In this document: piece after piece, positions 1,386 to 28,736 of the stretch | How positions within the stretch are numbered: the stretch's first letter is position 1 | Layout of the letters: every line of letters begins with the position of its first letter | Position numbers and translations under genes: made by a program | The notes under the pieces: model-generated | The model's input: only the letters and a program-made list of their open reading frames with translations | What the model was told of the DNA's origin: nothing | The model's database searches: none | Source: a virus | Taxonomy: Duplodnaviria; Caudoviricetes | DNA length: 57,344 nucleotides | Strand: one strand, 5' to 3' | IMG/VR virus record: IMGVR_UViG_3300018410_000010 | Span: 1-57,344 of that record

Positions 1386-1967
1386 TTAGATAATTTCAGC
1401 AAAGCCTATACCATTGCTTACAAGTTTAACGCCGTTGCTTTCTATTTTAATATTTGTACCATTATATTCTGGGCCCGTAAATCTAATTCCATTAGCGCCA
1501 TATCTATCGTAGATATGAGTATCCCAGTTTAATCCTTTACCAGCTAATGAAAAGCTCGTTGCAACTGAAACAGGGCCTTCTGAAAATACATAAATGTTTG
1601 TAGTAGATGGAAATTCAAGTAAAAGATCTGCATAGGCATGAGTAGTTACATAGCCAGGAACAGTATCTAATGCAAAATCAATAGAATTATTTGCATCTAA
1701 ATATCTTTGTACACCAAATTGAATAGTACCAGATACACTAAAACTAGTACTTAAATCGGTGGCTGACGCATACAGCGTGGGTGTTTCTATTAAAGACGTA
1801 CCTATAAGTGGTAATGTATATGGCTGTAATTCACCATAGATAGGTAATACGCCGGTGATCGATGTAATAGTATCAATTTGTACGGACAACGGCCCTTTTA
1901 CAGATACTACAGCACCAGCAATAAAATTAAAGTCTAATGTAGATGTAAATGCGCCATTAGCAGACAT
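1386..1967 (-). CDS. Hypothetical beta-rich virion protein
   Basis: 193-aa ORF rich in Thr/Ser/Gly, within the late operon, AAGGA RBS. Confidence 0.6.
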   Translation of the reverse strand: MSANGAFTSTLDFNFIAGAVVSVKGPLSVQIDTITSITGVLPIYGELQPYTLPLIGTSLIETPTLYASATDLSTSFSVSGTIQFGVQRYLDANNSIDFALDTVPGYVTTHAYADLLLEFPSTTNIYVFSEGPVSVATSFSLAGKGLNWDTHIYDRYGANGIRFTGPEYNGTNIKIESNGVKLVSNGIGFAEII

Positions 1968-2497: not shown

Positions 2498-3259
2498 TTA
2501 GTTTCTTCTCTCAATATCATCTTCAGACAGCATGTCACCCATCCAAACTTCAATTACTTTACAAGGATAGTTGCCGACGTTTGTCGCTTTATGCCACGAT
2601 TTCTTGGGAATGTCGATGCTTTCGCCAGATTTGTAAACTTTCGATGTTTTATAACCATTGCTAAATTCAAGAGACATTTCTAAATTACCGTCAACAATAT
2701 GCCAATGCTCAGATCTTGCAAAATGTCTTTGATCGCTTAATGATTTACCAGGATCAATAGTAAGTTCTTTTACTTTCCAATGTCCATTTTGATCTAGATC
2801 TTTGTATCTACCCCACAATCTCTCTGTTGTTGGTTTATCCCATTCGGATAGAATCCAAGAAGAGCTATTCTTTTTATCCTCTCCTCCTACGCCAAACACA
2901 AAGTTTACATCATCAAATACCATTTCTGGTATGTTTTCTTTTGTGCGATCACCACCATTTGCAAAAATGATTTCAGAATTATTGGGAAAATACTCTTTAA
3001 TATGCCGAATAGCATCAATGGCTGAATCATCATCGTCATTAAAATCAAAGGCATAACCTACTGATTTAATATTATGGACAATATCTTTACGTTCCTCCCA
3101 AGGCATAAATGGCTTACCTTTTTTACGAGTTAACCATGCATCACTATTTACACCTACACAAAGAATATCACCAAGTTCTTTTGCTGCATTAAAATAAGCA
3201 ATATGTCCAGAATGTAGAGGATCGAATCCTCCTGTAACAATAACAACTCTCATTCCCAT
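2498..3259 (-). CDS. Cytidylyltransferase (HIGH family) fused to a cupin / type II mannose-6-phosphate isomerase-like domain
   Basis: TGGFDPLHSGH, VGVNSD, FANGGDR, GVGG..K.NSSS; C-terminal SLSDQRH..RSEHW...WH...EDDIER. Start placed at ATG 3259 (TAATG overlap, GGAG RBS) rather than 3286. Confidence 0.85.
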   Translation of the reverse strand: MGMRVVIVTGGFDPLHSGHIAYFNAAKELGDILCVGVNSDAWLTRKKGKPFMPWEERKDIVHNIKSVGYAFDFNDDDDSAIDAIRHIKEYFPNNSEIIFANGGDRTKENIPEMVFDDVNFVFGVGGEDKKNSSSWILSEWDKPTTERLWGRYKDLDQNGHWKVKELTIDPGKSLSDQRHFARSEHWHIVDGNLEMSLEFSNGYKTSKVYKSGESIDIPKKSWHKATNVGNYPCKVIEVWMGDMLSEDDIERRN

Positions 3260-4518
3260 TAAACTTCTCCCATCATATAATCCCAAGCAAAGTTTACTTG
3301 ATTTGCAGTTTTCATTTGTGGATTATTATTTGCAATATTTGGATGAACCCACCAATCTTCATAAGGAGACTTGGGATCAACAGCAACATTTGGTACTAAT
3401 AATATATATCCAATTTGCTTAAGTATCTTTCTTGATTCGTCTCTAAACTCTTCACCCCACCAAATAGCATTGTGCTGAAATTGTATTACATTAAATTCGT
3501 GTTTATCAAATGGAATGTTCTTTAAACAATCTAAAGATGCGTGTTCTGCATTAATTCTTAAAAAGTCAATTTGTTGTTCAAAGCAATTTTGTTTAAACAA
3601 CGCTGTGTAATCTTGATTTGCGCCATCAGCTAAAATAACCGGTGTCTTTCTTTCTCTAGAAAATATATGACACATACGTTCGCTATTATCTAGAGATATA
3701 CCTTTCCAATTAAACTTTTCTTCAAGCAATTTTGTATTATTGTAAAGCTTAGGATGACCAGATCCTATTTCAATGAAAGTACCATTTTTCTTTCCATCTA
3801 AACAAGACAATACAAACATATCTTGAAAATGTCTTGAATAGTTACGGTCTACTGATTCTATTCCATTAAATTTAAATTTATACATATCCCAGTCAACATG
3901 ATGATAAGTTAATGTGCTAGGATAGCCGTGCCATTTATCTAATAATTCGGTAGCTTCTGCATCTAATTCTGCTGATAAGTTATTTTTATATTTTAAATTA
4001 AATGCTAAATTCTTTGAAGAGTCTCTACCGTCAGTTTTCCACTTAGCTTTTGCATATAATAAACGCAAAGCATTCTCGCCCGGATACTTTAAATCATTAT
4101 CTGGGGGATCAAGCGCTGGAATATCTGATACTGATGATTCGATATGAGAAATACCAATAGCAGCATACATCATGCTTTCTCGCCAATCATCTCTTTCTTG
4201 TTTAAATTTAGATAAGAAATAGTAAGCCTCTGGTCTTTCAGGCATTGTTTCAATGGCAATTTTAAGTAAGCCTTCTGTGCTATGATTACGATTTTCATTA
4301 CGATCATAGATGAATGCGCCGAGAATCATAGACTTATATTGAATCCAACGCTCACCGTATTCGTCCTCATTCGCCATGTCAGCAGCTCTAAGATACCAAC
4401 TAAAAGCGCCAGCACCCTGTTCTAAGCGATCGTATTCTCGTGCTAACTTATAGATTTTATATGGATTCTGGTAGTCAAGCACCACATCATTTAAAAGATT
4501 CATATTTGTAAATTTCAT
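3259..4518 (-). CDS. TPR-like domain plus FkbM-like SAM methyltransferase domain
   Basis: Helical N-terminus with PERPEAYY; C-terminal QDMFVLSCLDGKKNGTFIEIGS...NNTKLLE..FNWKGISLD...YEDWWVHP. Confidence 0.7.
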   Translation of the reverse strand: MKFTNMNLLNDVVLDYQNPYKIYKLAREYDRLEQGAGAFSWYLRAADMANEDEYGERWIQYKSMILGAFIYDRNENRNHSTEGLLKIAIETMPERPEAYYFLSKFKQERDDWRESMMYAAIGISHIESSVSDIPALDPPDNDLKYPGENALRLLYAKAKWKTDGRDSSKNLAFNLKYKNNLSAELDAEATELLDKWHGYPSTLTYHHVDWDMYKFKFNGIESVDRNYSRHFQDMFVLSCLDGKKNGTFIEIGSGHPKLYNNTKLLEEKFNWKGISLDNSERMCHIFSRERKTPVILADGANQDYTALFKQNCFEQQIDFLRINAEHASLDCLKNIPFDKHEFNVIQFQHNAIWWGEEFRDESRKILKQIGYILLVPNVAVDPKSPYEDWWVHPNIANNNPQMKTANQVNFAWDYMMGEV

Positions 4519-5603: not shown

Positions 5604-5933
5604 TTACCAGCTCGGCTTCACGGTGCGAGTTCTGTTTCTTTCAAGTTTAGTTGCAAGTTGTTCATTAATTCTTTCGAGGTCTTTTGAGCTTACGCTGTTT
5701 GTCACCCACTCAAGAGCCATCGCATTAGTTACGTCAATTAAAGCAACAAAGTCAGCGGCCGCTGTGTTAGCAGCCGACAACTTAGTATTACCTACATAAC
5801 TAGCAATTGTTCCATCCGTGTCTTCGACAATGCGTTTCCACTTAATACTCACAATAGAGTTTTCTAAGAGAGTTCCCTCGTGATTCAGCTCGTCTTGCAA
5901 ATCGAGCTTCATTATTTGCCAAGTATAAGTCAC
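5604..5933 (-). CDS. Small tail-fibre-associated phage protein
   Basis: TYTW...V..IKW......DG...DFVAL.DVT...ALEWV pattern; paralogous to 5949-6362. Confidence 0.6.
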   Translation of the reverse strand: MTYTWQIMKLDLQDELNHEGTLLENSIVSIKWKRIVEDTDGTIASYVGNTKLSAANTAAADFVALIDVTNAMALEWVTNSVSSKDLERINEQLATKLERNRTRTVKPSW

Positions 5934-5948: not shown

Positions 5949-6362
5949 TTATTCACCAGCTGGTGCTGGATCGTCTGCTGCTGGTGCATCTTCAGGAAGA
6001 GTTGGTGTAACGTCATCAGGTGCCCAAGGCATCGCGCGATCTTGAATAAGGTCTTGCTGGATCATGCGCTGAATTTGCTCTTCGATGTGAGCCTTATAAC
6101 TAGCATCACCATCTACTACAGCTTGAATCCACCCAATAACAGTTTCTTCAACTAGATCTTCAAAAGCTACGAATGCTCCTTCTGATACGGTAGCTGCTGA
6201 AAATGGTGTTGCTCCAGAAAATTCACCTGTGTTTCCGTCTGAGTCCGTTCCTGTGACTTTCCAATAAGTTTGGCATACTGCGTTTGGCAAAGTAACGCCT
6301 TCTGAATTTACTTCATCTTTTACTCTAAGATTAGTAACTTCGTATGATAATGTAAGAGCCAT
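5949..6362 (-). CDS. Small tail-fibre-associated phage protein (paralog of 5604-5933)
   Basis: Shares DE.N.EG..L.N......W.....D.DG....FVA..DL.....I.W with the neighbour; ends in a MPW motif; GGAG RBS. Confidence 0.65.
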   Translation of the reverse strand: MALTLSYEVTNLRVKDEVNSEGVTLPNAVCQTYWKVTGTDSDGNTGEFSGATPFSAATVSEGAFVAFEDLVEETVIGWIQAVVDGDASYKAHIEEQIQRMIQQDLIQDRAMPWAPDDVTPTLPEDAPAADDPAPAGE

Positions 6363-6419: not shown

Positions 6420-6977
6420 TTACTGTCTATGCAAATATAAATCGACCGGTATACAAATTCTAAGGCTAGAAAGATAAGGATTTACGCAATGATATGCAAA
6501 GCTTGGAAATATCATATAGTCACCAGTTTTTGGCGCATGAATATGGTTTTGAAACAAAGAAAAAAACCAATCATCATATCCTCTATTACAATTCGATCTA
6601 GGATCTGAAAATACTATTTCGCCTCCTACGTCTTTTTCTTCTACCATAATGTAAAATACTCCAGACAATTGAGAACCAGAATGATTATGATTTGACATAC
6701 TATAGTACTTACCATGTCCGGTAATCCAAGCTTTCATCTCATAACTATCATAATCTGAAATTCTTTTACCAATTGTATTTATAAGATATTCATCAAATTT
6801 ATTATAAACTACTTTTTTAAACTTTTCCATTGTGGAATGTTTATCAGCAAAAATACTGTTTCCATCTACGCCGGGTCTTGAGCTTAAATCATAGTTAGAA
6901 AAAATATATTCGACTAAGCCTTCTACTTCAAAATTACCAGAGCCAAACATAGTCGGCCATAAAGCATCCATTTTCAT
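6420..6977 (-). CDS. 2OG-Fe(II) oxygenase (phage HxH type)
   Basis: HNHSGSQLSGVFY...GGEIVFSDPR...P.TGDYMIFPSFAYHCVNP...RI. Confidence 0.85.
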   Translation of the reverse strand: MKMDALWPTMFGSGNFEVEGLVEYIFSNYDLSSRPGVDGNSIFADKHSTMEKFKKVVYNKFDEYLINTIGKRISDYDSYEMKAWITGHGKYYSMSNHNHSGSQLSGVFYIMVEEKDVGGEIVFSDPRSNCNRGYDDWFFSLFQNHIHAPKTGDYMIFPSFAYHCVNPYLSSLRICIPVDLYLHRQ

Positions 6978-7078: not shown

Positions 7079-7537
7079 ATGACATTTGACCAATTTGAAG
7101 CTTACTTGTTATCCGAAGCTTGTTATCAAAATCATGACGTCTCTATTATCGATCATCAACAATTGCAGCACTATATAAAAGCAAACGACTTTATAGAATA
7201 CAACGCTTTGATGTCTAGCCATTTAGCTCAAGGTGTAGTCACTATTAAAGTAGAGCAAATGGAGCGCTATTGGGAGTTCGATGATAGAACAATTCATGCT
7301 TTCTATAATCCAAAAAATGGTCCAACATTTCCTGAACATACTGACGATGTAGATGTTATTATCGAATGTAAAGATGGAATTAAAAATATGGAAGTAGACG
7401 GTAAAGAAATTGCATTGCAACCGGGTGATAAGTTGATTATATCAAAGGGAACAATGCACAAAGCATTAAATTATGAAAAGGCATTAATGGCATCACATGG
7501 GATTGGCGACACAGCGTCACTTGAGCGTTTACGTTAA
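7079..7537 (+). CDS. Cupin/JmjC-like oxygenase
   Basis: FPEHTDDVDV (HxD) ... LQPGDKLIISKGTMHKA (distal His). Confidence 0.75.
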   Translation: MTFDQFEAYLLSEACYQNHDVSIIDHQQLQHYIKANDFIEYNALMSSHLAQGVVTIKVEQMERYWEFDDRTIHAFYNPKNGPTFPEHTDDVDVIIECKDGIKNMEVDGKEIALQPGDKLIISKGTMHKALNYEKALMASHGIGDTASLERLR

Positions 7538-8522
7538 AACGACAGAGACTTGTAATTTAAACTGTTCTCACTGTTTTACTTCTGGCATTAATGGAGCAAA
7601 AATTTATTTTGATCCAGTTCGTACTGCCAATTGGGTGAATCAGCTAGACAGAGATACAATTTTTTACGAATTTCACGGGGGTGAGCCTATGCTTGCCTCC
7701 GTCGAATCTATGCGCAAATTTGTTGAACTTACAAAGGGTGAAGGTGTCGATTATGGTATGACAACAAATTTGGTGTACAAACTTACAGATGAAAAACTTG
7801 AGTTTTTTGACGACGTCTTAAATAAGAGAATTGGAACGTCTTGGGATCCTACTATACGTTTTACAAATGATAGGCAAAGAAAACTATGGGAAGATAACGT
7901 AAAACTGCTAGTTGAACGCGGCTATACAATTAAATGTTTTGTGAGTTTAAGTAAAGATGTAATTAATATGGAACCAAGAGATATTGTTTCTTATATGGAA
8001 TCTCTTGGTGTTAAAGAACTAGATTTTGAGCGTATTACTATGGATGGTAACGCTAAAGGAAAAATGTGGCCATCTAACATTGAATTAGATAAATGGTTTA
8101 TGAGATATCATAATCAAATCGAAAGTAGAGATTCTATTTTTCATGTAATTATGGAAAACATTTACGCTAAATTTGAAGATAATAATCCATCTCGTGGTAC
8201 TTGGTGTAGAGATTGCGAACAAAAACTATTGACAATTAATGCAGATGGTAGTATAGCTGGATGTCCTAATACTGCTCCTCATAAAGCATACGGGCATATC
8301 GATACTCCCGCAAAAGAAGTAATGAAATCTACTGGCCGATGTGATATTATAATTAAAGAATTAAATAGAAATCCTGCATGCTTTTCTTGTCCGGTATTTG
8401 ATGTATGTGGATCAGATTGTCATCAATTAGAGTGGGAAGGTGAAATATGCCCGTCTCCTAAGAGTTTAATGCAGCATCTGAAGGATATAAATAATGTACA
8501 TATACTTAGAATTGGAGCTTAA
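7497..8522 (+). CDS. Radical SAM/SPASM protein 1
   Basis: CNLNCSHC, FHGGEP, C..C...INADG...GC, CFSCPVFDVCGSDC (Cx2Cx5Cx3C). Confidence 0.93.
   Translation: MGLATQRHLSVYVKTTETCNLNCSHCFTSGINGAKIYFDPVRTANWVNQLDRDTIFYEFHGGEPMLASVESMRKFVELTKGEGVDYGMTTNLVYKLTDEKLEFFDDVLNKRIGTSWDPTIRFTNDRQRKLWEDNVKLLVERGYTIKCFVSLSKDVINMEPRDIVSYMESLGVKELDFERITMDGNAKGKMWPSNIELDKWFMRYHNQIESRDSIFHVIMENIYAKFEDNNPSRGTWCRDCEQKLLTINADGSIAGCPNTAPHKAYGHIDTPAKEVMKSTGRCDIIIKELNRNPACFSCPVFDVCGSDCHQLEWEGEICPSPKSLMQHLKDINNVHILRIGA
8486..8493 (+). promoter_or_regulatory. Internal late promoter TATAAATA for the 8525 gene
   Basis: Exact motif in the 3' end of rSAM1, 31 nt before ATG 8525; GGAG RBS at 8514-8517. Confidence 0.65.
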
Positions 8523-8524
8523 AA

Positions 8525-9106
8525 ATGGTATCTTTAAATAATAATGTTAGAAAGTCTAATGTTATTGACAGATGGGAAGATTATGTCGCTGACGACGCAA
8601 GAGGTGGTCTTGTGTGGGGATTAGACGCTAAGCCTTTCAGTACTGCTCCAGACGATTGGTTTGGAGGAGATATTGCTAGCCCACCTGCAAAAGACTCTTA
8701 CGTTTCAGACAGCAATATTAGTGGAACACTTATTGAGGCAACAGCCACGCGAAACGCGCTAGTGACTGGCACAACACAGTGGACTCATCTAAGAAATATG
8801 CGCGCGGTTCAATTATTTAATTCCCAAGGCACCCAGCAGGGAACATTTGATGACACACAAAAAGCATACCAAGAAACTGGTCAAAGAGTAGATGTTACAG
8901 ATCCTGCCATTCCAACACAAGGGCCTTCAAATAATGGAAATCTCATTACTATCGGCTCAGATTCTGCACAAACTGGTATGGAGCACTATCTTGCTAGACT
9001 TCGCGGCGCTTATAGAACTATTCGAGATGACGCAGTATATAGAGAACAAACTGTCTGCCATTACAGCTGTCACTATAGCTGTCACGGCTCAAGAGGAAGA
9101 AGATAA
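8525..9106 (+). CDS. Putative substrate/precursor protein with C-terminal (CHxS)3-RGRR tail
   Basis: 193 aa; all three Cys lie in the terminal CHYSCHYSCHGSRGRR; adjacent to rSAM/SPASM genes. Substrate role is inferred. Confidence 0.7.
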   Translation: MVSLNNNVRKSNVIDRWEDYVADDARGGLVWGLDAKPFSTAPDDWFGGDIASPPAKDSYVSDSNISGTLIEATATRNALVTGTTQWTHLRNMRAVQLFNSQGTQQGTFDDTQKAYQETGQRVDVTDPAIPTQGPSNNGNLITIGSDSAQTGMEHYLARLRGAYRTIRDDAVYREQTVCHYSCHYSCHGSRGRR

Positions 9107-9846
9107 TGAATACAAGAGATACAGTGGCTCCTATTCCTATTGAATTACTTAAGGAGTATTTTAGTGATGATAGTATCGTTTTTAATATTGACTATGAAAA
9201 AAGTCTTTTAAAGGGTGATAAGATTATTACGTATCTAAGCAATTTAGATGTGCCATGCAAACTTACAGGTTTTGATAATGTTTCTTTAGAAGATAAAATG
9301 TCTTTAGTAAGAGATTATATGAATTCAAATCTCATAATTAACAGCAATGAACTTGAAGTATGCGTACTTAAAATATTACATAACGCAGCCATATATGATT
9401 TTGTGCGTCGATATGACGTTCAAGATATTTTAGACGAAAAAGAAATAGAGATTTTTTGCGAAAAAAATAAAGAAATAATTCATAAGTGGCTTGTTATGCT
9501 AGCAAGCTGTTCAGTGTATGCCATATATTCGATTGAAGATTTTAAAGATAAGGTAAAAGAAGAATTTGAAACTATAGATGATTATGATTATTGTGGCGTG
9601 AATTTTGTGCAATTATTTAAATACGAAGATACTCAGGTTTTGTTAACAAATCAAGACTTAGATGTATATTATTTTGAAAAACAATTTAACGAGCCTATGT
9701 TTAAAGGAGCTAATATATTTTATTATTGGCAAACAGAGGAAAACACAATGGCAATTATGGCATGGGGAATATCAACCGGAGAAATAAAACACGGTGATTT
9801 CACCCGTGCTATAGAAAAAGGATACGAAAATGTTTCTGCTTTTTGA
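9106..9846 (+). CDS. Hypothetical protein of the rSAM cluster
   Basis: 246 aa, TAATG-coupled to 8525-9106; no recognised motif. Confidence 0.75.
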   Translation: MNTRDTVAPIPIELLKEYFSDDSIVFNIDYEKSLLKGDKIITYLSNLDVPCKLTGFDNVSLEDKMSLVRDYMNSNLIINSNELEVCVLKILHNAAIYDFVRRYDVQDILDEKEIEIFCEKNKEIIHKWLVMLASCSVYAIYSIEDFKDKVKEEFETIDDYDYCGVNFVQLFKYEDTQVLLTNQDLDVYYFEKQFNEPMFKGANIFYYWQTEENTMAIMAWGISTGEIKHGDFTRAIEKGYENVSAF

Positions 9847-11002
9847 TAGAGTTTATGTTAAGTACGATTTTTTACTTGACAACAACGTTGATAATTTAAC
9901 TATCAGCCCTAATTTATCAATTCTAAACTGGGATGCGCTTGAGCTGGTGCATTCAAACATGGGTAATGAAATGCACAGGGTGCAGTTATATGAGCAACTA
10001 TTTCCCGGTTTTACATCTCCTGCAATGCCTGAAGGACAAGATCCTTTGCGAGAAATTGATACTCCCTACCCAAATGATCTAGCGTTTTTTCAAGCATTAT
10101 TAGATAAAGGACGCCTTAATATACACGTAGATACTGTTGCTTACGACCAACTCTTTTCTAAATTCTTAAAAATATTCTTTCCAAATATGCCAAGGGAAGT
10201 AGTATGGAAAACTTATAACATATTTAGAACAAATAGTCAACTACTTAATACAACTTCTTTTATATGGGGAGTTGAAGGATATGATGCAGTACAGCAAGCA
10301 AATGCAGATGCATGGGTGCCTAGAACAAAGACTCAATTTTTAGAAGTATTTGATGCAACAACTTTAGATTTACCTGACGCAGATTATAATACATTTAGAA
10401 CTAATGCCAAGCAAAAAATTGGAATTGAATGGATGATTGCAAATAGATTAAACGGCGATCAAACATACGATGTTTCTCTTGGCGAAAAAATGTATAAGCT
10501 TATGTCACAGCGTATTAATGAAGAAGTACAGTTTCTTAAGTCATCGTTATTTAGTAATCTATTTAGAGGATGGTCTCAAACAGTATTAGGATTGTCGTCA
10601 GTTGATGCTAATACAGATTTAATGGATCTTCGAGATACTAATGATAAAACCCGATGGTTATTTGATGATGACGATAAATTCTCATCTCCTGATTATCTTG
10701 CTCGTCACCCAAATATTCAATTTAGTACAATACGTACAAATATTTTGCAAGCGGTTACCGCAAATAATACTCCAATCGAAGAAGCTCTTACAGATGATAT
10801 GATGAATTTCGTATATAATAATACCGCATTACAAAACTTTACAACTGCTGATATTACTACAATATTAGATAATGATAGAAATCATTTAGGTCCATCAGTA
10901 TTTGAATCTGAAGATAGAATTAAGGTAAATTCTTTATTTTTAAGTTACATTTATAAACTTAAAAACAACGATGATAGTGAGTTAGGCTTATTTAGTTTAT
11001 GA
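9830..11002 (+). CDS. Hypothetical protein of the rSAM cluster
   Basis: 390-aa ORF overlapping both neighbours; AAGGA RBS; no recognised motif. Confidence 0.75.
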   Translation: MFLLFDRVYVKYDFLLDNNVDNLTISPNLSILNWDALELVHSNMGNEMHRVQLYEQLFPGFTSPAMPEGQDPLREIDTPYPNDLAFFQALLDKGRLNIHVDTVAYDQLFSKFLKIFFPNMPREVVWKTYNIFRTNSQLLNTTSFIWGVEGYDAVQQANADAWVPRTKTQFLEVFDATTLDLPDADYNTFRTNAKQKIGIEWMIANRLNGDQTYDVSLGEKMYKLMSQRINEEVQFLKSSLFSNLFRGWSQTVLGLSSVDANTDLMDLRDTNDKTRWLFDDDDKFSSPDYLARHPNIQFSTIRTNILQAVTANNTPIEEALTDDMMNFVYNNTALQNFTTADITTILDNDRNHLGPSVFESEDRIKVNSLFLSYIYKLKNNDDSELGLFSL

Positions 11003-11541
11003 TTCAAAATTGCTATGAGTCTTCGATATGGATTAAACAATTTGTAAATAGCGATAATTTCAATCAAGACGTTTTAAATACAACTAAAGCAATATCAGCC
11101 ACGGTTCCTGAGCCTGTGGCTGATTATAATATTGACTTGTGGCAAACAGATAATATGCTCACAATTAAGTCTTACTTTACTGAAGGATTTAATGCGCTTT
11201 GTGAGCAGTACGAAGAATCATCTTCTTATAATATAGATTCTATGAATATTATCAATCCTATGAAGTTTGGCGATTTTAAATCATGCCATACTCATGATGT
11301 GATTGATGCCTTTGGTGTATATTATCTAAATGACTCTGAAGAAGGCGGTAAGCTTAGATTATATGATCCACGATTCTTAAATAAAAAATCATTTACCAAA
11401 GAAGCATATATAGAAATAGAACCTAAAACTGGTTTAATGGTTGTAGCTCCTTATTATATTTGGCATGAAGTTACTCCATACCTCGGAAAAGAAACGAGAT
11501 ATAGTTTAGTATGTAATATGGTATTTGATAATGTTGTCTAG
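10999..11541 (+). CDS. 2OG-Fe(II) oxygenase (HxH type)
   Basis: HTH...GVYYL...GGKLRLYDPR...PKTGLMVVAPYYIWHEVTP...R.S. Confidence 0.85.
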   Translation: MIQNCYESSIWIKQFVNSDNFNQDVLNTTKAISATVPEPVADYNIDLWQTDNMLTIKSYFTEGFNALCEQYEESSSYNIDSMNIINPMKFGDFKSCHTHDVIDAFGVYYLNDSEEGGKLRLYDPRFLNKKSFTKEAYIEIEPKTGLMVVAPYYIWHEVTPYLGKETRYSLVCNMVFDNVV

Positions 11542-12547
11542 TATAATTCCCACACAAAACGTAGATATAATAACGAAACAAAATAAAAGATCTCAAGATG
11601 GTGAGATCATTGTTACGTTATTTGAATATTGCAATCTCAGCTGTACGTTTTGTAATCAAGATCATAATAGTCTTGAAGGCATAGATACAATTTTAGAAAA
11701 AATACAGGTTGTACAGAATATTATCCAAAAAACTCCAAAGGACCATTATAGTGTGCACTTTATGGGAGGCGAAGTATTTGCTGATGGTTTGCCTGATACA
11801 GTATTTGATGATTATGTAATCTTATGCCATGAATTAAATACATGGGCGCATCAACAAAATATTAGTCTTGAAATTTGTTTTACAAGTAATATGGTCTTTG
11901 ATAATAGAGAAAGATTAGATAACTTTCTTTATCAATCTAATCCTACGTTACTTACAAGCTTTGATCCAGCAGCAAGATTTAATAAAAAGAATTTTAAAAT
12001 ATTTCAAGATAATGTGAAGCACTACAAAGACTTTATTAAGTCTGCTAATGTGATTATGACTAGACCAACTATAAATAAGTTCATGAATGGCGACGTAGAG
12101 TTTTTTGATTATCTTTACGACAACTTCGATATATATTTTGATTATTATACACCAGAGAAAAATATGAAGTTGTTTATTCCAAATGATATTCAACTGCGCG
12201 ACTTTATGATTTATATGCTTGAGCATTATCCTAAAGCTTTACCATTTGCTGATTATACAAATAAAGTAAAAAAGCAAATGAGCTGCATGGATACAATAAC
12301 AATTATGCCAAACAATTCATTTGGCGCCTGTACTATACTGTTGAATAATTTTAAAAATGTAACGGCAACAAAAATCGAAATGGAACAAGAATGGTTCAAG
12401 CAATATAATTGTCTTGAATGCCCACATTTTCAATACTGTTCTATGGGATGTTTTTTGTCAAACCATATGCAAAGTTTTAGAACACAAGAAGCATGCTGGT
12501 TAAGTGAGGTTTATGATGTGGTCCACTCCAATACAAGTATTCAATAA
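11525..12547 (+). CDS. Radical SAM/SPASM protein 2
   Basis: CNLSCTFC, FMGGE, CLECPHFQYCSMGC; start may be ATG 11531. Confidence 0.92.
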   Translation: MIMLSSIIPTQNVDIITKQNKRSQDGEIIVTLFEYCNLSCTFCNQDHNSLEGIDTILEKIQVVQNIIQKTPKDHYSVHFMGGEVFADGLPDTVFDDYVILCHELNTWAHQQNISLEICFTSNMVFDNRERLDNFLYQSNPTLLTSFDPAARFNKKNFKIFQDNVKHYKDFIKSANVIMTRPTINKFMNGDVEFFDYLYDNFDIYFDYYTPEKNMKLFIPNDIQLRDFMIYMLEHYPKALPFADYTNKVKKQMSCMDTITIMPNNSFGACTILLNNFKNVTATKIEMEQEWFKQYNCLECPHFQYCSMGCFLSNHMQSFRTQEACWLSEVYDVVHSNTSIQ

Positions 12548-12977
12548 TGGATATCAAGATCCATTCGAAAGATATAAAGATTTTTTAAAAGATCATTATA
12601 AGCTTGATTTAAACGATTTTAAATACGACATACGAGAATGGAAAACAACTCCAGGCTCAGGCTATTGGATGTCTCCGCATAATCATGGTCACTCTCATTT
12701 TACTTCAATATATTATAATCACATTTCTGGTGAAGGTGGTGAATTAATTCTTCATGATCCAAGAGTAAACGCAAATAGAGGATTTCCACAAGAGTTTGGA
12801 TCTGAGTTTGCTCCTTACATTATTCAGCCAGAAACTGGAATGACTGTGATATTTCCATCTTACGTTTATCATACAGCTGCGCCATTTAGAGGCATAATAA
12901 GAGAAGCAAGCGTAAGTGAGATACAGCTTGCGAGTATAAGTACTGGGGATTCATATTTAGGAGCAACATCGATATGA
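12504..12977 (+). CDS. 2OG-Fe(II) oxygenase (HxH type)
   Basis: HNH..HFTSIYY...GGELILHDPR.NANRG...IFPSYVYH; probable start is ATG 12513 or 12516. Confidence 0.85.
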   Translation: MRFMMWSTPIQVFNNGYQDPFERYKDFLKDHYKLDLNDFKYDIREWKTTPGSGYWMSPHNHGHSHFTSIYYNHISGEGGELILHDPRVNANRGFPQEFGSEFAPYIIQPETGMTVIFPSYVYHTAAPFRGIIREASVSEIQLASISTGDSYLGATSI

Positions 12978-13609
12978 ATGTAAATCAATTTTATAAGGAC
13001 GGATATGATGAATGGGAAATGCCTTCACATTTAAAAGCTATGATCTGGGGACAACTACTCAGTGAGAATTGGATTGATCATCCGGTTTATAAAGCAATTC
13101 CAGATTGGAGTATTAATCAAGGTGGTGAAGCTCAACTATATCGACAAAAATATGAGCGTAGAGATGAGCAAGAAATTAATCAAAAATCTTTAGAGCTTAT
13201 TCCTGAAACATATAGAATGGTAATTGAAGAGTTATTTAATGAAGGTTATTATCATGAATGGTTTCAAAACGTGTGCGGATATAATTATAAACTTAAATTC
13301 GTCGATGTATGGAATGGCTCAGACGATCTAGGATGGCATTGGGATGGAGTTGAAGATCACGATATTGGATTCTTAATTTACTTTACTGAAGAACAAAACT
13401 GGAAAAAAGAATGGCAATCATACTTATCTCTTGGCGAAAGAGATTGGCAGCAAGAAAATATTGAGCTTAAACACACGGCTTATCCTGCTAATGGTAAGAT
13501 TATATTGTTAAATAATATGAATCCAAGGTTTGTGCATTCTGTTGCAAAACTAACAAATGATAATGTAAATAGATATACAATTAACGCAGGCTTTTCTTTA
13601 TGGAATTAA
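12974..13609 (+). CDS. 2OG-Fe(II) oxygenase (prolyl-hydroxylase-like, HxD)
   Basis: WHWDG...LIYF...P..GKIILLNN..PRFVHSV...RYTI. Confidence 0.82.
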   Translation: MNVNQFYKDGYDEWEMPSHLKAMIWGQLLSENWIDHPVYKAIPDWSINQGGEAQLYRQKYERRDEQEINQKSLELIPETYRMVIEELFNEGYYHEWFQNVCGYNYKLKFVDVWNGSDDLGWHWDGVEDHDIGFLIYFTEEQNWKKEWQSYLSLGERDWQQENIELKHTAYPANGKIILLNNMNPRFVHSVAKLTNDNVNRYTINAGFSLWN

Positions 13610-14595
13610 TTATTAAACCAACTGAACGTTGCAATTTTAAATGTACTTTTTGTTCAAGTACATCGATTGCTGATGACATAAAAGATCAGTTGGGTTTAAG
13701 CTATATTTTCAAATTTCTAAAAAGATTTCCAAACACCAATACAATTATTGTAAATGGCGGCGATCCATTAATGATGGATCCTAAGTATTATCGAAAATTG
13801 TTAGATCATATTGAAATTTTCAATTATCAAACAACCGTTTCTTTTACTACAAACCTATGGCCTTTTTATAAGAATCCTGAAAAGTGGATAGATATTTTTA
13901 CACATCCACGAATGGGAATTACAACAAGCTTTCATTATGGTGATTCTAGACTTAAAGGTGATTATTCAGTATTTACTGAAGAAGATTTCTGGGCCGTATC
14001 AGATAAAATGTTAGAACTCGTCGGTTATAGACCCGATTTTATTTCAGTAATTGACGAAGCAAACGAAGATACAGCTTTAGATAATGTAAGGCTTGCAAAA
14101 AAGATGGGTGTTGAATGCAAATTAAATTATGCTATGGCATCAGGTATTCAATCTCGCCCATATCAATTATCTAAAATGTATAAATTATATTTAGATGTTT
14201 ATGAAGCTGGTTTAACCGACTGGGAATTTAATACTAAGCAAATGATTAAACGTCTACGCAATGAAGCTTTAATGTGTCCACAAAATAGAAATTGTGATGA
14301 TACAATCAGAGCACTGCAACCTAGCGGCGACTATTACTCATGCGGTGCTATGGGAGACGATAGAGAATATTCTATTGATTTTAATCGAGAAATGAATGGC
14401 GAATTTTTTAGACCATTGCAAGAAGATCTCGAAATACAAACAATGCATGACGGATGCTATACATGTCCAATGTTCCAAATTTGTAATGGATGCAAGAAAA
14501 CAGTCAAAGATACTAAACGACATAATATGGTTGAAGAACACTGCACATTAATGAAACAATTAGCTCCAAGGATTATCGATGCAAATAACGGATAA
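13600..14595 (+). CDS. Radical SAM/SPASM protein 3
   Basis: IIKPTERCNFKCTFC, NGGDP, CP...C...P.GDYYSC, CYTCPMFQICNGC. Confidence 0.93.
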   Translation: MELIIKPTERCNFKCTFCSSTSIADDIKDQLGLSYIFKFLKRFPNTNTIIVNGGDPLMMDPKYYRKLLDHIEIFNYQTTVSFTTNLWPFYKNPEKWIDIFTHPRMGITTSFHYGDSRLKGDYSVFTEEDFWAVSDKMLELVGYRPDFISVIDEANEDTALDNVRLAKKMGVECKLNYAMASGIQSRPYQLSKMYKLYLDVYEAGLTDWEFNTKQMIKRLRNEALMCPQNRNCDDTIRALQPSGDYYSCGAMGDDREYSIDFNREMNGEFFRPLQEDLEIQTMHDGCYTCPMFQICNGCKKTVKDTKRHNMVEEHCTLMKQLAPRIIDANNG

Positions 14596-15139
14596 TGCCC
14601 TTTCGAATATTGATTATAAGAAAATTCATCATTATTTTACTTCAGAAATACCAATATGGCGTTTTATGCCTGGAATTAATGATAATGTTAACAGTACTAA
14701 TCAGCCTGAATACAAACCGACTTCATGGGGTTTTACATGCAATATTAGCAATACTATAGCGGACATTAAGGATAAGCATGCTTATAGATTATTAAAACCT
14801 CTTATTTTAAATAAAGAAAAATTAGTGAGAATCAGATGCGGATTTATAGTGAATGTAGGTCCGTCTAAACTACATAAACCTCATATTGATCAGCAATCAA
14901 TAGAACATATTACTCAACTTTATTATTTAACAGATAGTGATGCTGTTACAAACGTATTCGAAGAATATGGAAATGACCCAAAATATGATAGTTATCAACC
15001 CGAAGATTTTACTGTTAAATTCCGATGTACACCAAAAAAGAATAGAATGTTTATTTTTGATGGAATGCATTGGCATAGTTCTTCGCCCGTTTTGGGTAAA
15101 GAAGCAAGATTAGTGTTGTCGATTAATTATGCTAAATAG
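14579..15139 (+). CDS. 2OG-Fe(II) oxygenase
   Basis: PHID...LYYL.DSD..T...PKKNR.FIFDG.HWHSSS...RLVLSIN. Confidence 0.8.
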   Translation: MQITDNALSNIDYKKIHHYFTSEIPIWRFMPGINDNVNSTNQPEYKPTSWGFTCNISNTIADIKDKHAYRLLKPLILNKEKLVRIRCGFIVNVGPSKLHKPHIDQQSIEHITQLYYLTDSDAVTNVFEEYGNDPKYDSYQPEDFTVKFRCTPKKNRMFIFDGMHWHSSSPVLGKEARLVLSINYAK

Positions 15140-15836
15140 AAGTCCAAATTTTAACGATCTATATTTAAAAGGCGCCGATATCGTAGAGGTTGATTCGTCA
15201 TTTAATGCTATGCTTTATGGATTGCTAATGGCTGAAACCTTTGTCGGTGATGGCGCAATTCAAAATCCAATTTGGGATAGAGAATATCATGAAAGAGATT
15301 TAGATGTTTATGTTAAAGGAAAGCAGCCTTATTTAGAATTTTTCCAAGAAGTTGTTAAATCAGAATATTTTGATTATTGGAGGCATGTTTACGGAGATTT
15401 TGATGAAATACATGTAAACATTAATAAGGTAGACCAAACCGGGGAGATGCCTTGGCACTTTGATGGCTTCGATGGAACTTTATTACAAATTCTTTGTTAT
15501 CCAAACATGGATGATTTTGAGGAAAAAGATGGCGGTCATTTTTTAGTTGGTAGACCTGATAATTTATATCGAAACGGAGACCCTATGCCTCATTGGGATC
15601 CTCAATCTTCTTTAGATAATATTTTAACAAAAAACGTAAAAGTTACACAAAAGTATGTACCTAATCGAAATAGTGTGGTAATATTAAATAACAATGATCC
15701 ATCTTTTGTTCATAGAGTAACTCAGTTAAAAGCAGATAAAACTCGATATACAATTATCGCAACGCTTGGCTTTAGTTCTCTTTGGTCTCAAAACAAATTA
15801 AAATTGGGTCATTATAAAGGCACCAAATTATTATGA
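15129..15836 (+). CDS. 2OG-Fe(II) oxygenase (paralog of 12974-13609)
   Basis: WHFDG...DGGHF...P.RNSVVILNN.DPSFVHRV...RYTI. Confidence 0.82.
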   Translation: MLNRSPNFNDLYLKGADIVEVDSSFNAMLYGLLMAETFVGDGAIQNPIWDREYHERDLDVYVKGKQPYLEFFQEVVKSEYFDYWRHVYGDFDEIHVNINKVDQTGEMPWHFDGFDGTLLQILCYPNMDDFEEKDGGHFLVGRPDNLYRNGDPMPHWDPQSSLDNILTKNVKVTQKYVPNRNSVVILNNNDPSFVHRVTQLKADKTRYTIIATLGFSSLWSQNKLKLGHYKGTKLL

Positions 15837-16738
15837 TTATATCTTTGAATCCAACATATCTATGTAATTTTAGATGTGATTTTTGTTATCTCACTTCAGA
15901 ACAATTGGCAGATAAAAATAAAATTGATTTAGAATTGTTAGATCAAAGACTGCTTGAAGTTTCTAATTATCAGCCTATCAGATATATTGATTTATATGGC
16001 GGTGAGATTAGTACTTTAAATGATGAGTATTTTTATGATTTAAAAAGAATTATTCGTAAACATTACCAAGGCGAAATAAACATTGTAACTAATTATGCTT
16101 CTCCAAAAAGCTATATGCATGACAATGATATTTCACTATCTGTATCATTTGATTTTGAAGCTCGTGAAAGATCTGATCTAGTATTTGCGAATATGCTTGT
16201 AAGTCCGGTTCCTATTTCTGTGCTTATTCTTGCTAGCCCTAAAGTCATAAATATGGACGTTGGGCAAATGATTCAACAACTTTCAATGCTTTCAAATATA
16301 CGTTCGGTAGAAATTAAACCGTATTCTACAAACCAAGCAAACGCGCATAACGTAACTCATAAAGACTTCGAATTGTTTGTTGCTGATTGGTTAAACCGCG
16401 ATCTACCGTTTGAGTTTGAAAATAGGCATCGTATTCATGAATCTTTATCTGGAAATTATGACGCATTTAGTAATGACCATGTATATATAAATCCAAACGG
16501 CAAGTTTGCTGTGCTCGAATTTGATAAAAATGATAATGAATACTTTTTAGAATTAGATACTTTTAAAGATTATCTTAAATGGGCAGATGAAGAACCGATA
16601 AAAAATGTCTCTGATATATGTAGAGAATGTAAGTGGTACGGTAAATGTTTGACTGAACATTATAGATATGTTAAAGATTTAGATAATGGCTGTAACGGCT
16701 ATAGAGGACTTTTAGAATGGCAAGAAAAAAAATATTGA
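15833..16738 (+). CDS. Radical SAM protein 4 with reduced SPASM-like domain
   Basis: CNFRCDFCY, LYGGE, INPNG, CRECKWYGKC..EH...GC. Confidence 0.9.
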   Translation: MIISLNPTYLCNFRCDFCYLTSEQLADKNKIDLELLDQRLLEVSNYQPIRYIDLYGGEISTLNDEYFYDLKRIIRKHYQGEINIVTNYASPKSYMHDNDISLSVSFDFEARERSDLVFANMLVSPVPISVLILASPKVINMDVGQMIQQLSMLSNIRSVEIKPYSTNQANAHNVTHKDFELFVADWLNRDLPFEFENRHRIHESLSGNYDAFSNDHVYINPNGKFAVLEFDKNDNEYFLELDTFKDYLKWADEEPIKNVSDICRECKWYGKCLTEHYRYVKDLDNGCNGYRGLLEWQEKKY

Positions 16739-18057: not shown

Positions 18058-18412
18058 AAGATTAAACGAATCTTTAACCGATGATTTAAATAAAGTAGAT
18101 ATTGTTTGGCGCCCAGAAACAATTGTGGAAGACGCTTTGCGTCATTGGGATGAAGAAGTAGATGAATGGATATATCCTGGTAAATCCTATTTTGTTGCTA
18201 TATGTTATGCGTATTGGATATCAGAAGACTTTGAAGAGGACTTTGAAGAAGTTTTAAATGACCCAGATTTGCTTCCAGGCGATCCATATTTTTTACCATA
18301 CAGCCAAGCAGAAGAAGTATATGACGAAATACTTTCAGCAGTGCGTTATATAGAAGACGGCGCTATGGTATCTGAAGTAAGAAATTATTATGATGAAGAG
18401 ATGCAGTTATGA
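18023..18412 (+). CDS. Acidic hypothetical protein of the rSAM cluster
   Basis: ORF track gives 17996-18412; TTG at 18023 follows an AGGAAGGTGG RBS and is the more likely start. Contains WIYPGKSYFVAICYA. Confidence 0.7.
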   Translation: MKEWKVRQEVYRRLNESLTDDLNKVDIVWRPETIVEDALRHWDEEVDEWIYPGKSYFVAICYAYWISEDFEEDFEEVLNDPDLLPGDPYFLPYSQAEEVYDEILSAVRYIEDGAMVSEVRNYYDEEMQL

Positions 18413-28695: not shown

Positions 28696-28736
28696 TCGGT
28701 TCACTCTCCCCAGTTAGGCATTTGTCGTATTTTGTA

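What the first reader, a model, noticed from the sequence alone, without database searches (positions are those of the whole stretch)
8525..9106. Putative precursor ending in CHYS-CHYS-CHGS-RGRR
Seen: the only three Cys of the 193-aa protein fall in a 4-residue-period tail (9056-9103). The repeats use different synonymous codons (TGC/TGT, CAT/CAC, TAC/TAT, AGC/TCA), suggesting selection on the peptide rather than recent DNA slippage. Known: bacterial His-Xaa-Ser repeat proteins sit beside rSAM enzymes (Hxs systems), and triceptide maturases crosslink an aromatic residue to the residue at +2. Inference: three HxS cyclophanes and/or Cys thioether bridges are installed here, with a ~175-aa folded domain as carrier and RGRR as a recognition or cleavage tag. 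A plain Cys/His metal-binding site is the alternative.
Basis: partly seen in the sequence, partly recalled or inferred. Interest (0 to 1): 0.9.

Follow-up and report, generated by a model that had tools for sequence, protein, structure and literature searches.

The report
Phage protein tail beside radical-SAM enzymes
A 193-residue phage protein ends in an invariant Cys-His-x-Ser triple repeat plus Arg-x-Arg-Arg and is always encoded right after a radical-SAM/SPASM enzyme, so it is probably the protein substrate of an uncharacterised modification cassette shared by many phages and some predatory bacteria.

Summary
ORF 8525-9106 (+) encodes 193 aa ending VCHYSCHYSCHGSRGRR; its only three Cys lie in the tail.

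The tail is the hallmark of a large family. 137 of 149 representative homologs end exactly CH..CH..CH..R.RR. Synonymous codons vary freely at the invariant residues.

The gene sits in a conserved cassette: cupin, rSAM/SPASM, CHxS protein, P1 (~240 aa), P2 (~370 aa), further rSAMs. An rSAM-like ORF lies directly upstream in 74 of 80 viral loci, and 5 of the other 6 are cut by a contig end.

The cassette occurs in cultured jumbo phages (RSF1, Atu_ph07, Phosso, pPa_SNUABM_DT01) and in chromosomes of Bdellovibrio-like MAGs.

Most likely (about 0.5) the tail is the substrate of the adjacent rSAM/SPASM maturase(s). A Cys/His metal or Fe-S site on an accessory protein remains a serious rival (about 0.3).

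The rSAM link and peptide-level selection hold. Tyr is not conserved, so only His could be a conserved cyclophane donor, and membership in the Hxs and triceptide families fails on score. No modification chemistry is shown. The searches I ran found no paper describing the family.

The parts
8525..9106 (+). CHxS-tail protein (193 aa): folded ~175-aa body of no recognised fold plus the C-terminal tail
   Evidence: AF2 model pLDDT 91. No PDB fold match: Foldseek none at E<=0.001, VIA best Z 4.5. Only uncharacterised phage proteins match in BFVD.
9056..9103 (+). Invariant tail C-H-x-S C-H-x-[SN] C-H-x-S R-x-R-R at the extreme C-terminus
   Evidence: 137 of 149 representatives end with exactly this pattern.
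7497..8522 (+). rSAM1: radical SAM enzyme with a full SPASM domain. Its stop is 2 nt before the CHxS start.
   Evidence: CxxxCxxC at C19/C23/C26. C-terminal Cys at 240, 256, 295, 298, 304, 308, 318, invariant or nearly so in 65 orthologs. TIGR04085 SPASM 27.4 bits against cut-off 27. phrog_1802. Nearest solved structures are 8vpo, CteB 5wgg and anSME 4k36.
7079..7537 (+). Cupin/JmjC-like protein, conserved first gene of the cassette in phages
   Evidence: A best-hit homolog is present in 65 of 69 non-redundant viral loci.
9106..9846 (+). P1, conserved 246-aa protein of unknown fold (phrog_20767). Its start overlaps the CHxS stop (TAATG).
   Evidence: Present in 67 of 69 loci. Also in RSF1, Atu_ph07 and the Bdellovibrio-like MAGs. 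AF2 pLDDT 93. No fold match.
9830..11002 (+). P2, conserved but fast-diverging 390-aa protein of unknown function
   Evidence: An ORF of about 340-420 aa occupies +2 in most loci. A profile of these ORFs hits RSF1 and the MAG loci L097, L098 and L099. No Pfam, PHROG, NCBIfam or PDB sequence match.
11525..12547 (+). rSAM2 (SPASM-type Cys pattern)
   Evidence: A homolog is present in 62 of 69 loci.
13600..14595 (+). rSAM3 (SPASM-type)
   Evidence: Present in 47 of 69 loci, within loci limited to +/-6 kb.
15833..16738 (+). rSAM4 (shorter, 4 C-terminal Cys, twitch-like)
10999..15836 (+). Five 2OG-Fe(II) oxygenase genes interleaved with the rSAMs (10999-11541, 12504-12977, 12974-13609, 14579-15139, 15129-15836). 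They are a lineage-variable accessory part.
   Evidence: Each is present in only 2-29 of 69 loci.

Best explanation
The 193-aa protein is the protein substrate of a dedicated radical-SAM/SPASM maturation cassette. Its ~175-aa folded body serves as carrier and recognition domain. Its flexible, invariant C-terminal tail (C-H-x-S)x3-R-x-R-R is threaded into the adjacent rSAM/SPASM enzyme rSAM1, and possibly into the further rSAMs and the cupin, and is covalently modified on the Cys, His or Ser/Asn side chains. The candidate reactions are those known for this enzyme class: Cys thioether bridges, His-C2 to C-beta(+2) cyclophanes, or Cys/Ser oxidation.

Because the tail is invariant while the body drifts, the product is more likely a fixed protein-borne prosthetic group or crosslinked metal-binding module than a diversifying RiPP antibiotic. 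The terminal R-x-R-R is read as an enzyme-docking or anion-binding element that stays on the product.

Shown: the motif, its conservation, the operon, and the enzyme class. Inferred: that the tail is the substrate, and which chemistry is used.
For: 1. Tail invariance with free synonymous variation. In the 127-sequence alignment the only invariant columns of the whole protein are C178 H179 C182 H183 C186 H187 R190 R192 R193.

2. Gene linkage. An rSAM-like ORF lies directly upstream in 74 of 80 viral loci. Five of the other 6 are cut by the contig end and one (L064) is rearranged. Among 69 non-redundant loci, 64 of the 68 with an upstream ORF have it, against a background of 21.7% of ORFs in these rSAM-rich loci. 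Intergenic distances are -26 to +35 nt. An rSAM1 ortholog is the best hit in 68 of 69 loci.

3. All 4 cultured phages I inspected, out of 15 records with an rSAM1 homolog, encode a CHxS-tail protein immediately after it: RSF1 ORF071, Atu_ph07 gp170, pPa_SNUABM_DT01 PA10_00065 and Phosso XYS97446.

4. rSAM1 has the full SPASM Cys set and passes the SPASM domain model. Its weak full-length similarities are all to peptide- or protein-modifying maturases: DarW, DarE, anSME, HxsB, DynA, PapB, FxsB, QhpD, plus CteB and anSME structures.

5. The cassette is self-contained in bacterial chromosomes. In five Bdellovibrio-like MAG loci the CHxS gene sits with P1 among 3 to 7 CxxxCxxC ORFs (6 or 7 in L094, L096 and L097); a P2 relative was detected in L097, L098 and L099. 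The flanks hold housekeeping genes: cytochrome oxidase, SecA, PilMPQ, CarAB, LepA, MetK. The substrate is therefore probably encoded inside the cassette, and the CHxS protein is the only member with a conspicuous invariant peptide.

6. In the AF2 model the tail is the only low-confidence part (pLDDT about 61) hanging off a confident domain.

7. Precedents. rSAM enzymes mature a protein with HxS repeats in the HXS defence system, with a +8 Da modification on SHRSS (PMC13128918, abstract and section 9 read). His-C2 to C-beta crosslinks by HtkB and HaaB are reported (PMC11499958, abstract in the search listing only).
Against: No modification has been observed. Every rSAM family score is far below its curated cut-off, so no chemistry can be assigned.

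Three Cys plus three His is also a textbook metal-ligand set. AF2 draws residues 181-190 as a helix, which would line up a Cys stripe and a His stripe.

An invariant 'core' on a variable 'leader' is the reverse of most RiPPs.

The position after His+1 tolerates S, N, A, D and Q, so Ser chemistry cannot be essential at every repeat.

Some family members carry glycine-rich or beta-solenoid-like insertions. In phages the cassette lies beside fibre genes. Both hint at a structural role.

Marine T4-like phages that carry many rSAM genes also carry Fe-S assembly genes (PMC5332604, passages read), so an Fe-S helper role is conceivable.
Confidence: 0.5

Rival explanations
1. The tail is an unmodified Cys/His metal or Fe-S binding site. 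The protein would be an accessory of the rSAM enzymes: a cluster carrier or scaffold, a dedicated electron donor, or a scaffold on which the rSAMs assemble a metallocofactor. It would not be their substrate.
For: The ligand set is 3 Cys + 3 His with i/i+4 spacing, in a segment predicted helical. 92 of 137 family members have no other Cys. The protein co-occurs strictly with 2-7 Fe-S-dependent rSAM genes. Marine T4-like viral genomes with up to 12 rSAM genes also encode Fe-S assembly proteins (PMC5332604, passages).
Against: There is no similarity to any ferredoxin, flavodoxin, IscU/IscA or NifU model. The near-invariant Ser/Asn after each His+1, and the invariant terminal R-x-R-R, are not explained by metal binding. 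Three Cys at i, i+4, i+8 on one helix cannot converge on a single cubane cluster without oligomerisation or unfolding (geometric inference, not a computation). The linkage is to one specific orthologous rSAM, as expected for an enzyme-substrate pair.
Confidence: 0.3
2. One reading: three His-x-Ser three-residue cyclophanes (triceptide-type) and/or Cys thioethers are installed, in an Hxs-like system.
For: H at i and S/N at i+2 are conserved in all three repeats: S 128/137, S or N 129/137, S 122/137. rSAM1 and rSAM3 give weak hits to HxsB and HxsC and to the cyclophane maturases FxsB, YhhB, XyeB and AmcB. His-C2 to C-beta crosslinks are known for HtkB and HaaB (PMC11499958, abstract in listing).
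Against: All those hits are 19-41 bits against cut-offs of 268-450 bits. They are no better than the hits to ether, thioether or formylglycine enzymes. Tyr is not conserved. There is no HxsA or HxsD match. This model does not explain why the Cys before each His is invariant.
Confidence: 0.15
3. The protein is a structural or virion-associated component, for example a fibre accessory. Its tail would be a zinc-type or nucleic-acid/anion-binding end. The neighbouring rSAM, cupin and 2OG enzymes would modify other targets, such as the collagen-like and giant fibre proteins.
For: In phages the cassette lies next to fibre genes: Peptidase_G2/IMC-like and DUF4815 ORFs in L078; giant ORFs and a collagen-repeat fibre with a Peptidase_S74 chaperone in the window; a 13-kb 'virion structural protein' gene in Atu_ph07 and Phosso. 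Some members carry a Gly_rich_2 domain or solenoid-like insertions.
Against: The same core (rSAMs + CHxS + P1) stands alone among housekeeping genes in the two Bdellovibrio-like chromosomes I examined. No fibre or phage family appeared among the 20 flanking ORFs scanned. SPASM rSAMs next to a protein with an invariant terminal peptide are more simply read as enzyme and substrate.
Confidence: 0.1

Closest known systems
HXS (His-Xaa-Ser) antiphage system: HxsA effector matured by the rSAM enzymes HxsB/HxsC with HxsD (PMC13128918; abstract and section 9 read)
   Same: A full-length protein, not a short peptide, carries tandem H-x-S units rich in basic residues. It is encoded beside two or more rSAM enzymes that mature it.
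   Different: HxsA has five HxS repeats, a signal peptide, N-terminal processing and a peptidoglycan-binding domain, and it is a bacterial defence effector. Here there are three C-H-x-S units at the extreme C-terminus, with an invariant Cys before each His and a terminal R-x-R-R. No signal peptide is evident by eye in the N-termini. The carriers are phages and Bdellovibrio-like bacteria. P0001 matches no NCBIfam model, and the rSAMs score 41/370 and 31/268 bits against HxsB and HxsC.
Triceptide / three-residue cyclophane rSAM maturases (XyeB, YhhB, FxsB, GrrM, AmcB; the His-specific HaaB and HtkB)
   Same: rSAM/SPASM enzymes act on repeated aromatic-x-X motifs. Here His at i and a C-beta-bearing residue at i+2 are conserved.
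   Different: Their substrates are short leader-core peptides with variable cores. Here the carrier is a 175-aa folded domain and the core is invariant. Enzyme scores are 18-33 bits against cut-offs of 370-450. The invariant Cys has no counterpart.
Anaerobic sulfatase-maturating enzyme (anSME), which acts on the C/S-x-P/A-x-R motif
   Same: It is a SPASM rSAM acting on a folded or unfolded protein, and it oxidises Cys or Ser. The last repeat C-H-[GSN]-S-R has Cys with Arg at +4. There is full-length weak similarity in sequence.
   Different: The +2 residue is G, S or N rather than P or A. The enzyme scores 45 bits against a cut-off of 349. No sulfatase is nearby. The motif definition is recalled, not taken from a call.
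Protein-borne crosslinks and cofactors made by SPASM rSAMs: QhpD on the QhpC subunit; MftC on the invariant C-terminus of MftA (mycofactocin)
   Same: An invariant C-terminal or Cys-rich segment is modified by a dedicated SPASM rSAM encoded next to it. The product is a fixed cofactor or crosslinked subunit rather than a variable antibiotic.
   Different: No sequence membership: QhpD 30/453 bits, MftC 22.6/265 bits. The motif differs. The partner proteins P1 and P2 are of unknown fold. The comparison of mechanism is from recall.
CXXX-repeat peptide rSAM maturase family (TIGR04115)
   Same: The target has Cys at every fourth residue.
   Different: The hit is only 23.8 bits against a cut-off of 350 and covers only the N-terminal rSAM motif. 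The description of that family's targets is recalled.

Membership tests
Radical SAM / SPASM maturases (for rSAM1, 7497-8522) | CxxxCxxC SAM-cluster motif | tested here: met
   C19, C23 and C26 are invariant in 65 orthologs. The Pfam Radical_SAM score is 27.1 bits, just under the 29.5 cut-off.
Radical SAM / SPASM maturases (for rSAM1, 7497-8522) | C-terminal SPASM 7-Cys pattern for two auxiliary clusters | tested here: met
   C240-x15-C256 with G251, C295-x2-C298-x5-C304-x3-C308, and C318. TIGR04085 scores 27.4 bits against cut-off 27.
His-Xaa-Ser (Hxs/HXS) system | HxsA-type repeat protein (NCBIfam model) | tested here: not met
   P0001 matched 0 NCBIfam families at E<=0.01. Only the bare H-x-S tripeptide periodicity is shared.
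His-Xaa-Ser (Hxs/HXS) system | Paired rSAM maturases HxsB and HxsC | tested here: not met
   rSAM1 against HxsB: 41.1 bits, cut-off 370. rSAM3 against HxsC: 31.2 bits, cut-off 267.9.
His-Xaa-Ser (Hxs/HXS) system | HxsD partner protein | tested here: not met
   The cupin, P1, P2 and two further neighbours gave 0 NCBIfam families.
Triceptide (3-residue cyclophane) systems | Maturase belongs to the XyeB, YhhB, FxsB, GrrM or AmcB families | tested here: not met
   Scores of 19.4/450, 32/445, 33.3/370, 22.1/310 and 25.8/425 bits.
Triceptide (3-residue cyclophane) systems | Repeated aromatic-x-X motif in the precursor | tested here: inconclusive
   His-x-[S/N] is conserved three times, but Tyr is not: 3 of 137. 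No crosslink can be tested with these tools.
Anaerobic sulfatase maturase / formylglycine | Enzyme equivalog and the C/S-x-P/A-x-R target motif | tested here: not met
   45.2 bits against cut-off 349. The last repeat is C-H-[G62,S39,N17...]-S-R, so P or A at +2 is not the rule.
CXXX-repeat peptide maturase (TIGR04115) | Enzyme equivalog | tested here: not met
   23.8 bits against cut-off 350, covering residues 10-77 only.
Known fold families (body domain of P0001) | Structural similarity to a solved fold | tested here: inconclusive
   Foldseek against PDB: none at E<=0.001. VIA wide: best Z 4.5, rmsd 5.2, 125 residues aligned.

The most novel reading that the evidence does not exclude
Phages of very different kinds and predatory Bdellovibrio-like bacteria share a cassette that turns the invariant (Cys-His-x-Ser)3-Arg-x-Arg-Arg end of a carrier protein into a new protein-borne prosthetic group. 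The candidate product is a Cys/His-crosslinked, metal-binding or redox-active module, made by several SPASM radical-SAM enzymes plus a cupin. It would be used during attack on Gram-negative prey, making it the offensive mirror image of the bacterial HXS defence, in which rSAM enzymes mature an HxS-repeat protein to block phage DNA entry.
Probability: 0.15. Interest if true: 0.9.

Novelty: new variant of a known kind. Interest (0 to 1): 0.7.

Why it matters
If the tail is an rSAM substrate, this is a widespread family of post-translationally modified proteins that, as far as my searches went, nobody has described. It is carried by marine phages, by phiKZ-like and 470-490-kb jumbo phages, and by predatory bacteria. 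Its chemistry cannot be assigned to any characterised maturase family.

It would explain why so many phages invest 5-12 kb in rSAM, cupin and 2OG genes. It would also give a protein-sized counterpart to the HXS defence system described in 2026.

The question is directly testable. Cultured phages carry the cassette, and the C-terminal tryptic peptide is well suited to MS.

Tried and rejected
- **Complex prediction.** rSAM1 (alignment A3) with the CHxS protein (A2), three 4Fe-4S and SAM gave 'no answer' (score 0.15, mark 0.32). The controls were not run. This is no evidence either way.
- **tblastn of family members against cultured phages.** P0001 and P0086 found nothing, although members exist there. 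They were found instead through the better-conserved rSAM1.
- **megablast of the cassette DNA.** No match.
- **Fold searches.** The P0001 model had no PDB match; BFVD returned only uncharacterised relatives. The P1 model had no match (best Z 4.9 over 60 residues).
- **Profile searches against PDB sequences.** P1, P2 and the CHxS family gave nothing usable.
- **hhalign of P1 and P2 against rSAM1.** No relationship.
- **ESM Atlas.** Weak 'penicillin amidase fragment' look-alikes for P0001, sharing 132 of 256 features, taken as noise. Nothing for P2.
- **Heme-c type C-x3-C-H reading.** Rejected: no signal peptide is evident by eye and the family looks cytoplasmic. No prediction program was run.
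- **RGRR as a protease site releasing a core peptide.** Rejected because it is the last four residues.
- **Literature.** 'CHSSCHSSCH' gave 0 papers. Searches on radical SAM + cupin + 2OG + phage, Atu_ph07 + radical SAM, and SPASM + bacteriophage + RiPP found only genome notes that list these genes without a function.
- **Virion proteome tables.** The tables for PhiRP31, FLC6 and S13 are in supplements, which were closed. Whether the protein is in virions stays open.
Full report
**1. The observation**

ORF 8525-9106 (+) translates to 193 residues ending ...REQTVCHYSCHYSCHGSRGRR*. The DNA at 9056-9106 reads TGC CAT TAC AGC TGT CAC TAT AGC TGT CAC GGC TCA AGA GGA AGA AGA TAA. The three Cys are the protein's only Cys. 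The window is a complete IMG/VR virus record of 57,344 bases, 37.7% G+C, which CheckV estimates as 26% of a genome.

**2. The tail defines a large family**

A word-indexed search gave 27 close homologs at 49-99% identity. All keep CHYSCH.SCH.SRGRR.

An exhaustive phmmer search of 1.84 billion representatives gave 158 hits at E<=1e-3, with the best 150 listed, and one of them (P0028) was already held. Nearly all are 170-230 aa and align end to end. Of the 149 representatives examined, 137 end exactly CH..CH..CH..R.RR. The 12 exceptions are truncations, one-residue insertions, a lost middle Cys, four repeats, or a different end.

Within the 137:
- Cys, His and the three Arg are invariant.
- The residue after His+1 is S in 128, S or N in 129, and S in 122 of 137, for the three repeats in order.
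- The x residue is small or polar. Tyr occurs in 3 of 137 at each of the first two x positions, so Tyr is peculiar to the window's subgroup.
- 92 of 137 have no other Cys.

In a 127-sequence alignment, the nine invariant columns of the whole protein are exactly the tail's C, H and R. Mean column identity is 13%. Across 65 distinct tail DNA sequences, every invariant residue uses all its synonymous codons, including both Ser boxes and both Arg boxes. Selection therefore acts on the peptide.

**3. The body**

AlphaFold2 with the 127-row alignment gives a confident alpha/beta domain: mean pLDDT 91, pTM 0.86. The last ~13 residues sit at pLDDT about 61 and are drawn as a helix.

- Foldseek against the PDB found nothing at E<=0.001.
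- VIA-align against 48,161 chains gave a best Z of 4.5.
- BFVD returned only uncharacterised phage relatives.
- Pfam and NCBIfam gave no hit. PHROGs matched only the tail of phrog_35144.

**4. The neighbourhood in the window**

The + strand operon 7079-19525 encodes, in order:
- a cupin/JmjC-like protein;
- rSAM1;
- the CHxS protein;
- P1 (246 aa, phrog_20767);
- P2 (390 aa);
- three more rSAMs interleaved with five 2OG-Fe(II) oxygenases;
- a Trp-halogenase-family flavoprotein;
- two unknown proteins and a P-loop protein.

rSAM1 stops 2 nt before the CHxS start, and the CHxS stop overlaps the P1 start.

rSAM1 has CxxxCxxC at 19/23/26 and a complete SPASM Cys set: C240-x15-C256, C295-x2-C298-x5-C304-x3-C308, and C318. 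These are invariant or nearly so in 65 orthologs. It passes the SPASM domain model at 27.4 bits against a cut-off of 27. rSAM2 and rSAM3 have similar patterns. rSAM4 has a shorter one.

**5. Conservation of the cassette**

Eight related viral loci keep the whole operon order. A ninth, distant one (24% identity in the CHxS protein) keeps cupin, rSAM1, CHxS, P1 and three further rSAMs.

A motif-seeded scan of IMG/VR found 173 stretches encoding relatives. The best 80 loci were kept, giving 69 distinct CHxS sequences, on contigs of 7 to 246 kb. In 74 of the 80, the ORF directly upstream carries CxxxCxxC. Five of the other six are cut by the contig end, and L064 has its rSAM four genes upstream.

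By best phmmer hit with the window's proteins, the 69 non-redundant loci contain:
- rSAM1 in 68;
- P1 in 67;
- the cupin in 65;
- rSAM2 in 62;
- rSAM3 in 47, within +/-6 kb.

P2 is too divergent for single-sequence search (9 of 69). However, an ORF of about 340-420 aa occupies position +2 in most loci, and a profile built from these ORFs finds relatives elsewhere. Genes overlap or lie within 35 nt of each other.

**6. Cultured phages**

tblastn with rSAM1 found 15 GenBank records: Ralstonia RSF1, RSL2, FLC4-types and RsoM3USA; Burkholderia FLC6, FLC8 and SURPRISE13; Agrobacterium Atu_ph07; Sinorhizobium Phosso; and Pseudomonas pPa_SNUABM_DT01.

I inspected four of them. Each has cupin, then rSAM, then a hypothetical protein ending in the motif:

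| Phage | Protein | C-terminal end |
|---|---|---|
| RSF1 | ORF071 | VCHSSCHSSCHGSRGRR |
| Atu_ph07 | gp170 | FCHSSCHASCHNSRSRR |
| pPa_SNUABM_DT01 | PA10_00065 | ICHTSCHTSCHSARGRR |
| Phosso | XYS97446 | YCHTSCHASCHSSRSRR |

The genome papers I could read only list these genes as cupin, Fe-S oxidoreductase, radical SAM and 2OG oxygenase, without a function (PMC8066314, PMC11898562 and PMC5468394; passages only).

**7. Cellular genomes**

Two look like binned phage contigs with the phage-type order (L092, L093). L095 is cut by its contig end.

Five are Bdellovibrio-like (record titles). There the CHxS gene lies with a P1 homolog among 3 to 7 CxxxCxxC ORFs, 6 or 7 of them in L094, L096 and L097. 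L094, L096, L097 and L099 have an rSAM1 ortholog, while L098 has only a weak rSAM1-like hit (73 bits). A P2 relative was found in L097, L098 and L099, and L098 also has a cupin.

For two of them I read 20 kb on each side. The 20 flanking ORFs I scanned (10 per genome) include cytochrome oxidase subunits I and II, FabH, an acyl-CoA ligase and SecA in one genome. In the other they include PilM, PilP, the PilQ secretin, CarA, CarB, LepA and MetK. No phage family appeared.

A profile search of 401 genomes sampled from that phylum found the family in 15. Some hits lie on contigs above 0.5-2 Mb, and two genomes hold tandem copies. I did not sample other phyla.

**8. What it most likely is**

SPASM rSAM enzymes are, by established knowledge, peptide and protein maturases. 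rSAM1's weak but full-length similarities are all to such enzymes: DarW 46 bits, anSME 45, DarE 45, HxsB 41, DynA 37, PapB 35, FxsB 33, QhpD 30. All are far below their cut-offs of 340-650 bits. The nearest solved structures are 8vpo, CteB and anSME.

The cassette is self-contained in bacterial chromosomes. The CHxS protein is the only member with an invariant exposed peptide, and it is glued to one specific rSAM ortholog. I therefore read the tail as the substrate and the body as its carrier and recognition domain (confidence 0.5).

The chemistry is open. Three options fit the conserved C, H and S/N positions, and none is favoured by the scores:
- thioethers from the Cys;
- His-C2 to C-beta(+2) cyclophanes, with HtkB and HaaB as precedent (abstract only);
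- Cys/Ser oxidation of the anSME type, since the last repeat is C-H-x-S-R.

Because the 'core' is invariant and the 'leader' drifts, a fixed prosthetic or crosslinked module seems more likely than a diversifying antibiotic. This would resemble QhpC or mycofactocin logic (recalled).

**9. Rivals**

- **Metal or Fe-S site on an accessory protein (0.3).** It is favoured by the classic ligand set and the helical stripe geometry. It is also favoured by the report that marine T4-like viral genomes rich in rSAM genes carry Fe-S assembly genes too (PMC5332604, passages). Against it stand the conserved Ser/Asn and R-x-R-R, the lack of any carrier or ferredoxin signature, and the one-to-one linkage with rSAM1.
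- **A structural, fibre-associated role with other rSAM targets (0.1).** It is suggested by fibre genes next to the cassette in phages and by Gly-rich or solenoid-like insertions in some members. The chromosomal Bdellovibrio-like cassettes weaken it.
This is a sub-case of the substrate model. Hxs membership fails on every defining feature tested.

**10. Comparison and novelty**

In working principle, the closest characterised system is the HXS defence system. There, HxsB and HxsC mature the HxS-repeat protein HxsA, placing a +8 Da change on an SHRSS motif (PMC13128918, section 9).

The present family differs in several ways: motif, position, carrier domain, lack of an evident export signal, enzyme families, partner proteins (cupin, P1, P2) and carriers (phages and predatory bacteria rather than defended hosts).

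My literature searches found no description of the family. I class it as a new variant of a known kind: a protein substrate matured by rSAM/SPASM enzymes.

**11. Limits**

- No modification, metal content, expression or virion location was measured.
- The complex prediction gave no verdict.
- ORFs in the fetched loci were called crudely, taking the longest ORF from the first ATG/GTG/TTG.
- The cellular survey is incomplete.

Noticed in passing
window 35386-39957 (-): A 1523-aa ORF has seven stretches of collagen triple-helix repeats and a C-terminal Peptidase_S74 (endosialidase chaperone) domain, so it is a collagen-like tail fibre. The many 2OG-Fe(II) oxygenases of the prolyl-hydroxylase-like families in 10999-15836 and 6420-6977 could hydroxylate it.
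   Followed up: partly
window 19522-28704 (-) and 40391-52102 (-): Two giant ORFs of 3060 and 3903 aa flank the region. The first has no Pfam hit. The second has only sub-threshold pentapeptide and phycobilisome-like hits. Relatives of the 3060-aa protein are the best hit for an ORF in 20 of 69 loci that carry the cassette.
   Followed up: partly
window 16717-18057 (+): A flavin-dependent Trp-halogenase-family gene (246 bits) ends the enzyme operon. It is kept in the window's close relatives but appears in only 1 of 69 broader loci.
   Followed up: no
window 5604-5933 (-) and 5949-6362 (-): Two adjacent paralogous DUF7936 genes lie upstream of the divergent 2OG oxygenase gene.
   Followed up: no
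window 2498-3286 (-): A 262-aa ORF matches phrog_7878, annotated as heptose 7-phosphate kinase / heptose 1-phosphate adenylyltransferase. This is a sugar-nucleotide enzyme sitting among structural genes.
   Followed up: no
L094, L096, L097 (Bdellovibrio-like MAG loci); G093:C5:201981-203118; G086:C5:88442-89534: The chromosomal cassettes in L094, L096 and L097 hold 6-7 consecutive CxxxCxxC ORFs around the CHxS gene. Two genomes carry two CHxS genes in tandem.
   Followed up: partly
proteins P0084, P0165 (family members): Some members are 453-533 aa. P0084 has an N-terminal Gly_rich_2 domain before a complete CHxS body. P0165 has a ~300-aa solenoid-like insertion inside the body. BFVD also lists 504-660-aa relatives in 'Myoviridae sp. 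ctijX18'.
   Followed up: partly
window 1386-1967 (-): A source's name for homolog P0013 gives gene coordinates 1386-1967, 582 nt. An unrelated 193-aa ORF occupies exactly those coordinates on the window's minus strand. I take this as coincidence.
   Followed up: partly
The genome search control: phrog_35144, the PHROG that matches only the tail, also 'rings' in the Bacteroides thetaiotaomicron control genome. I did not look at that site.
   Followed up: no
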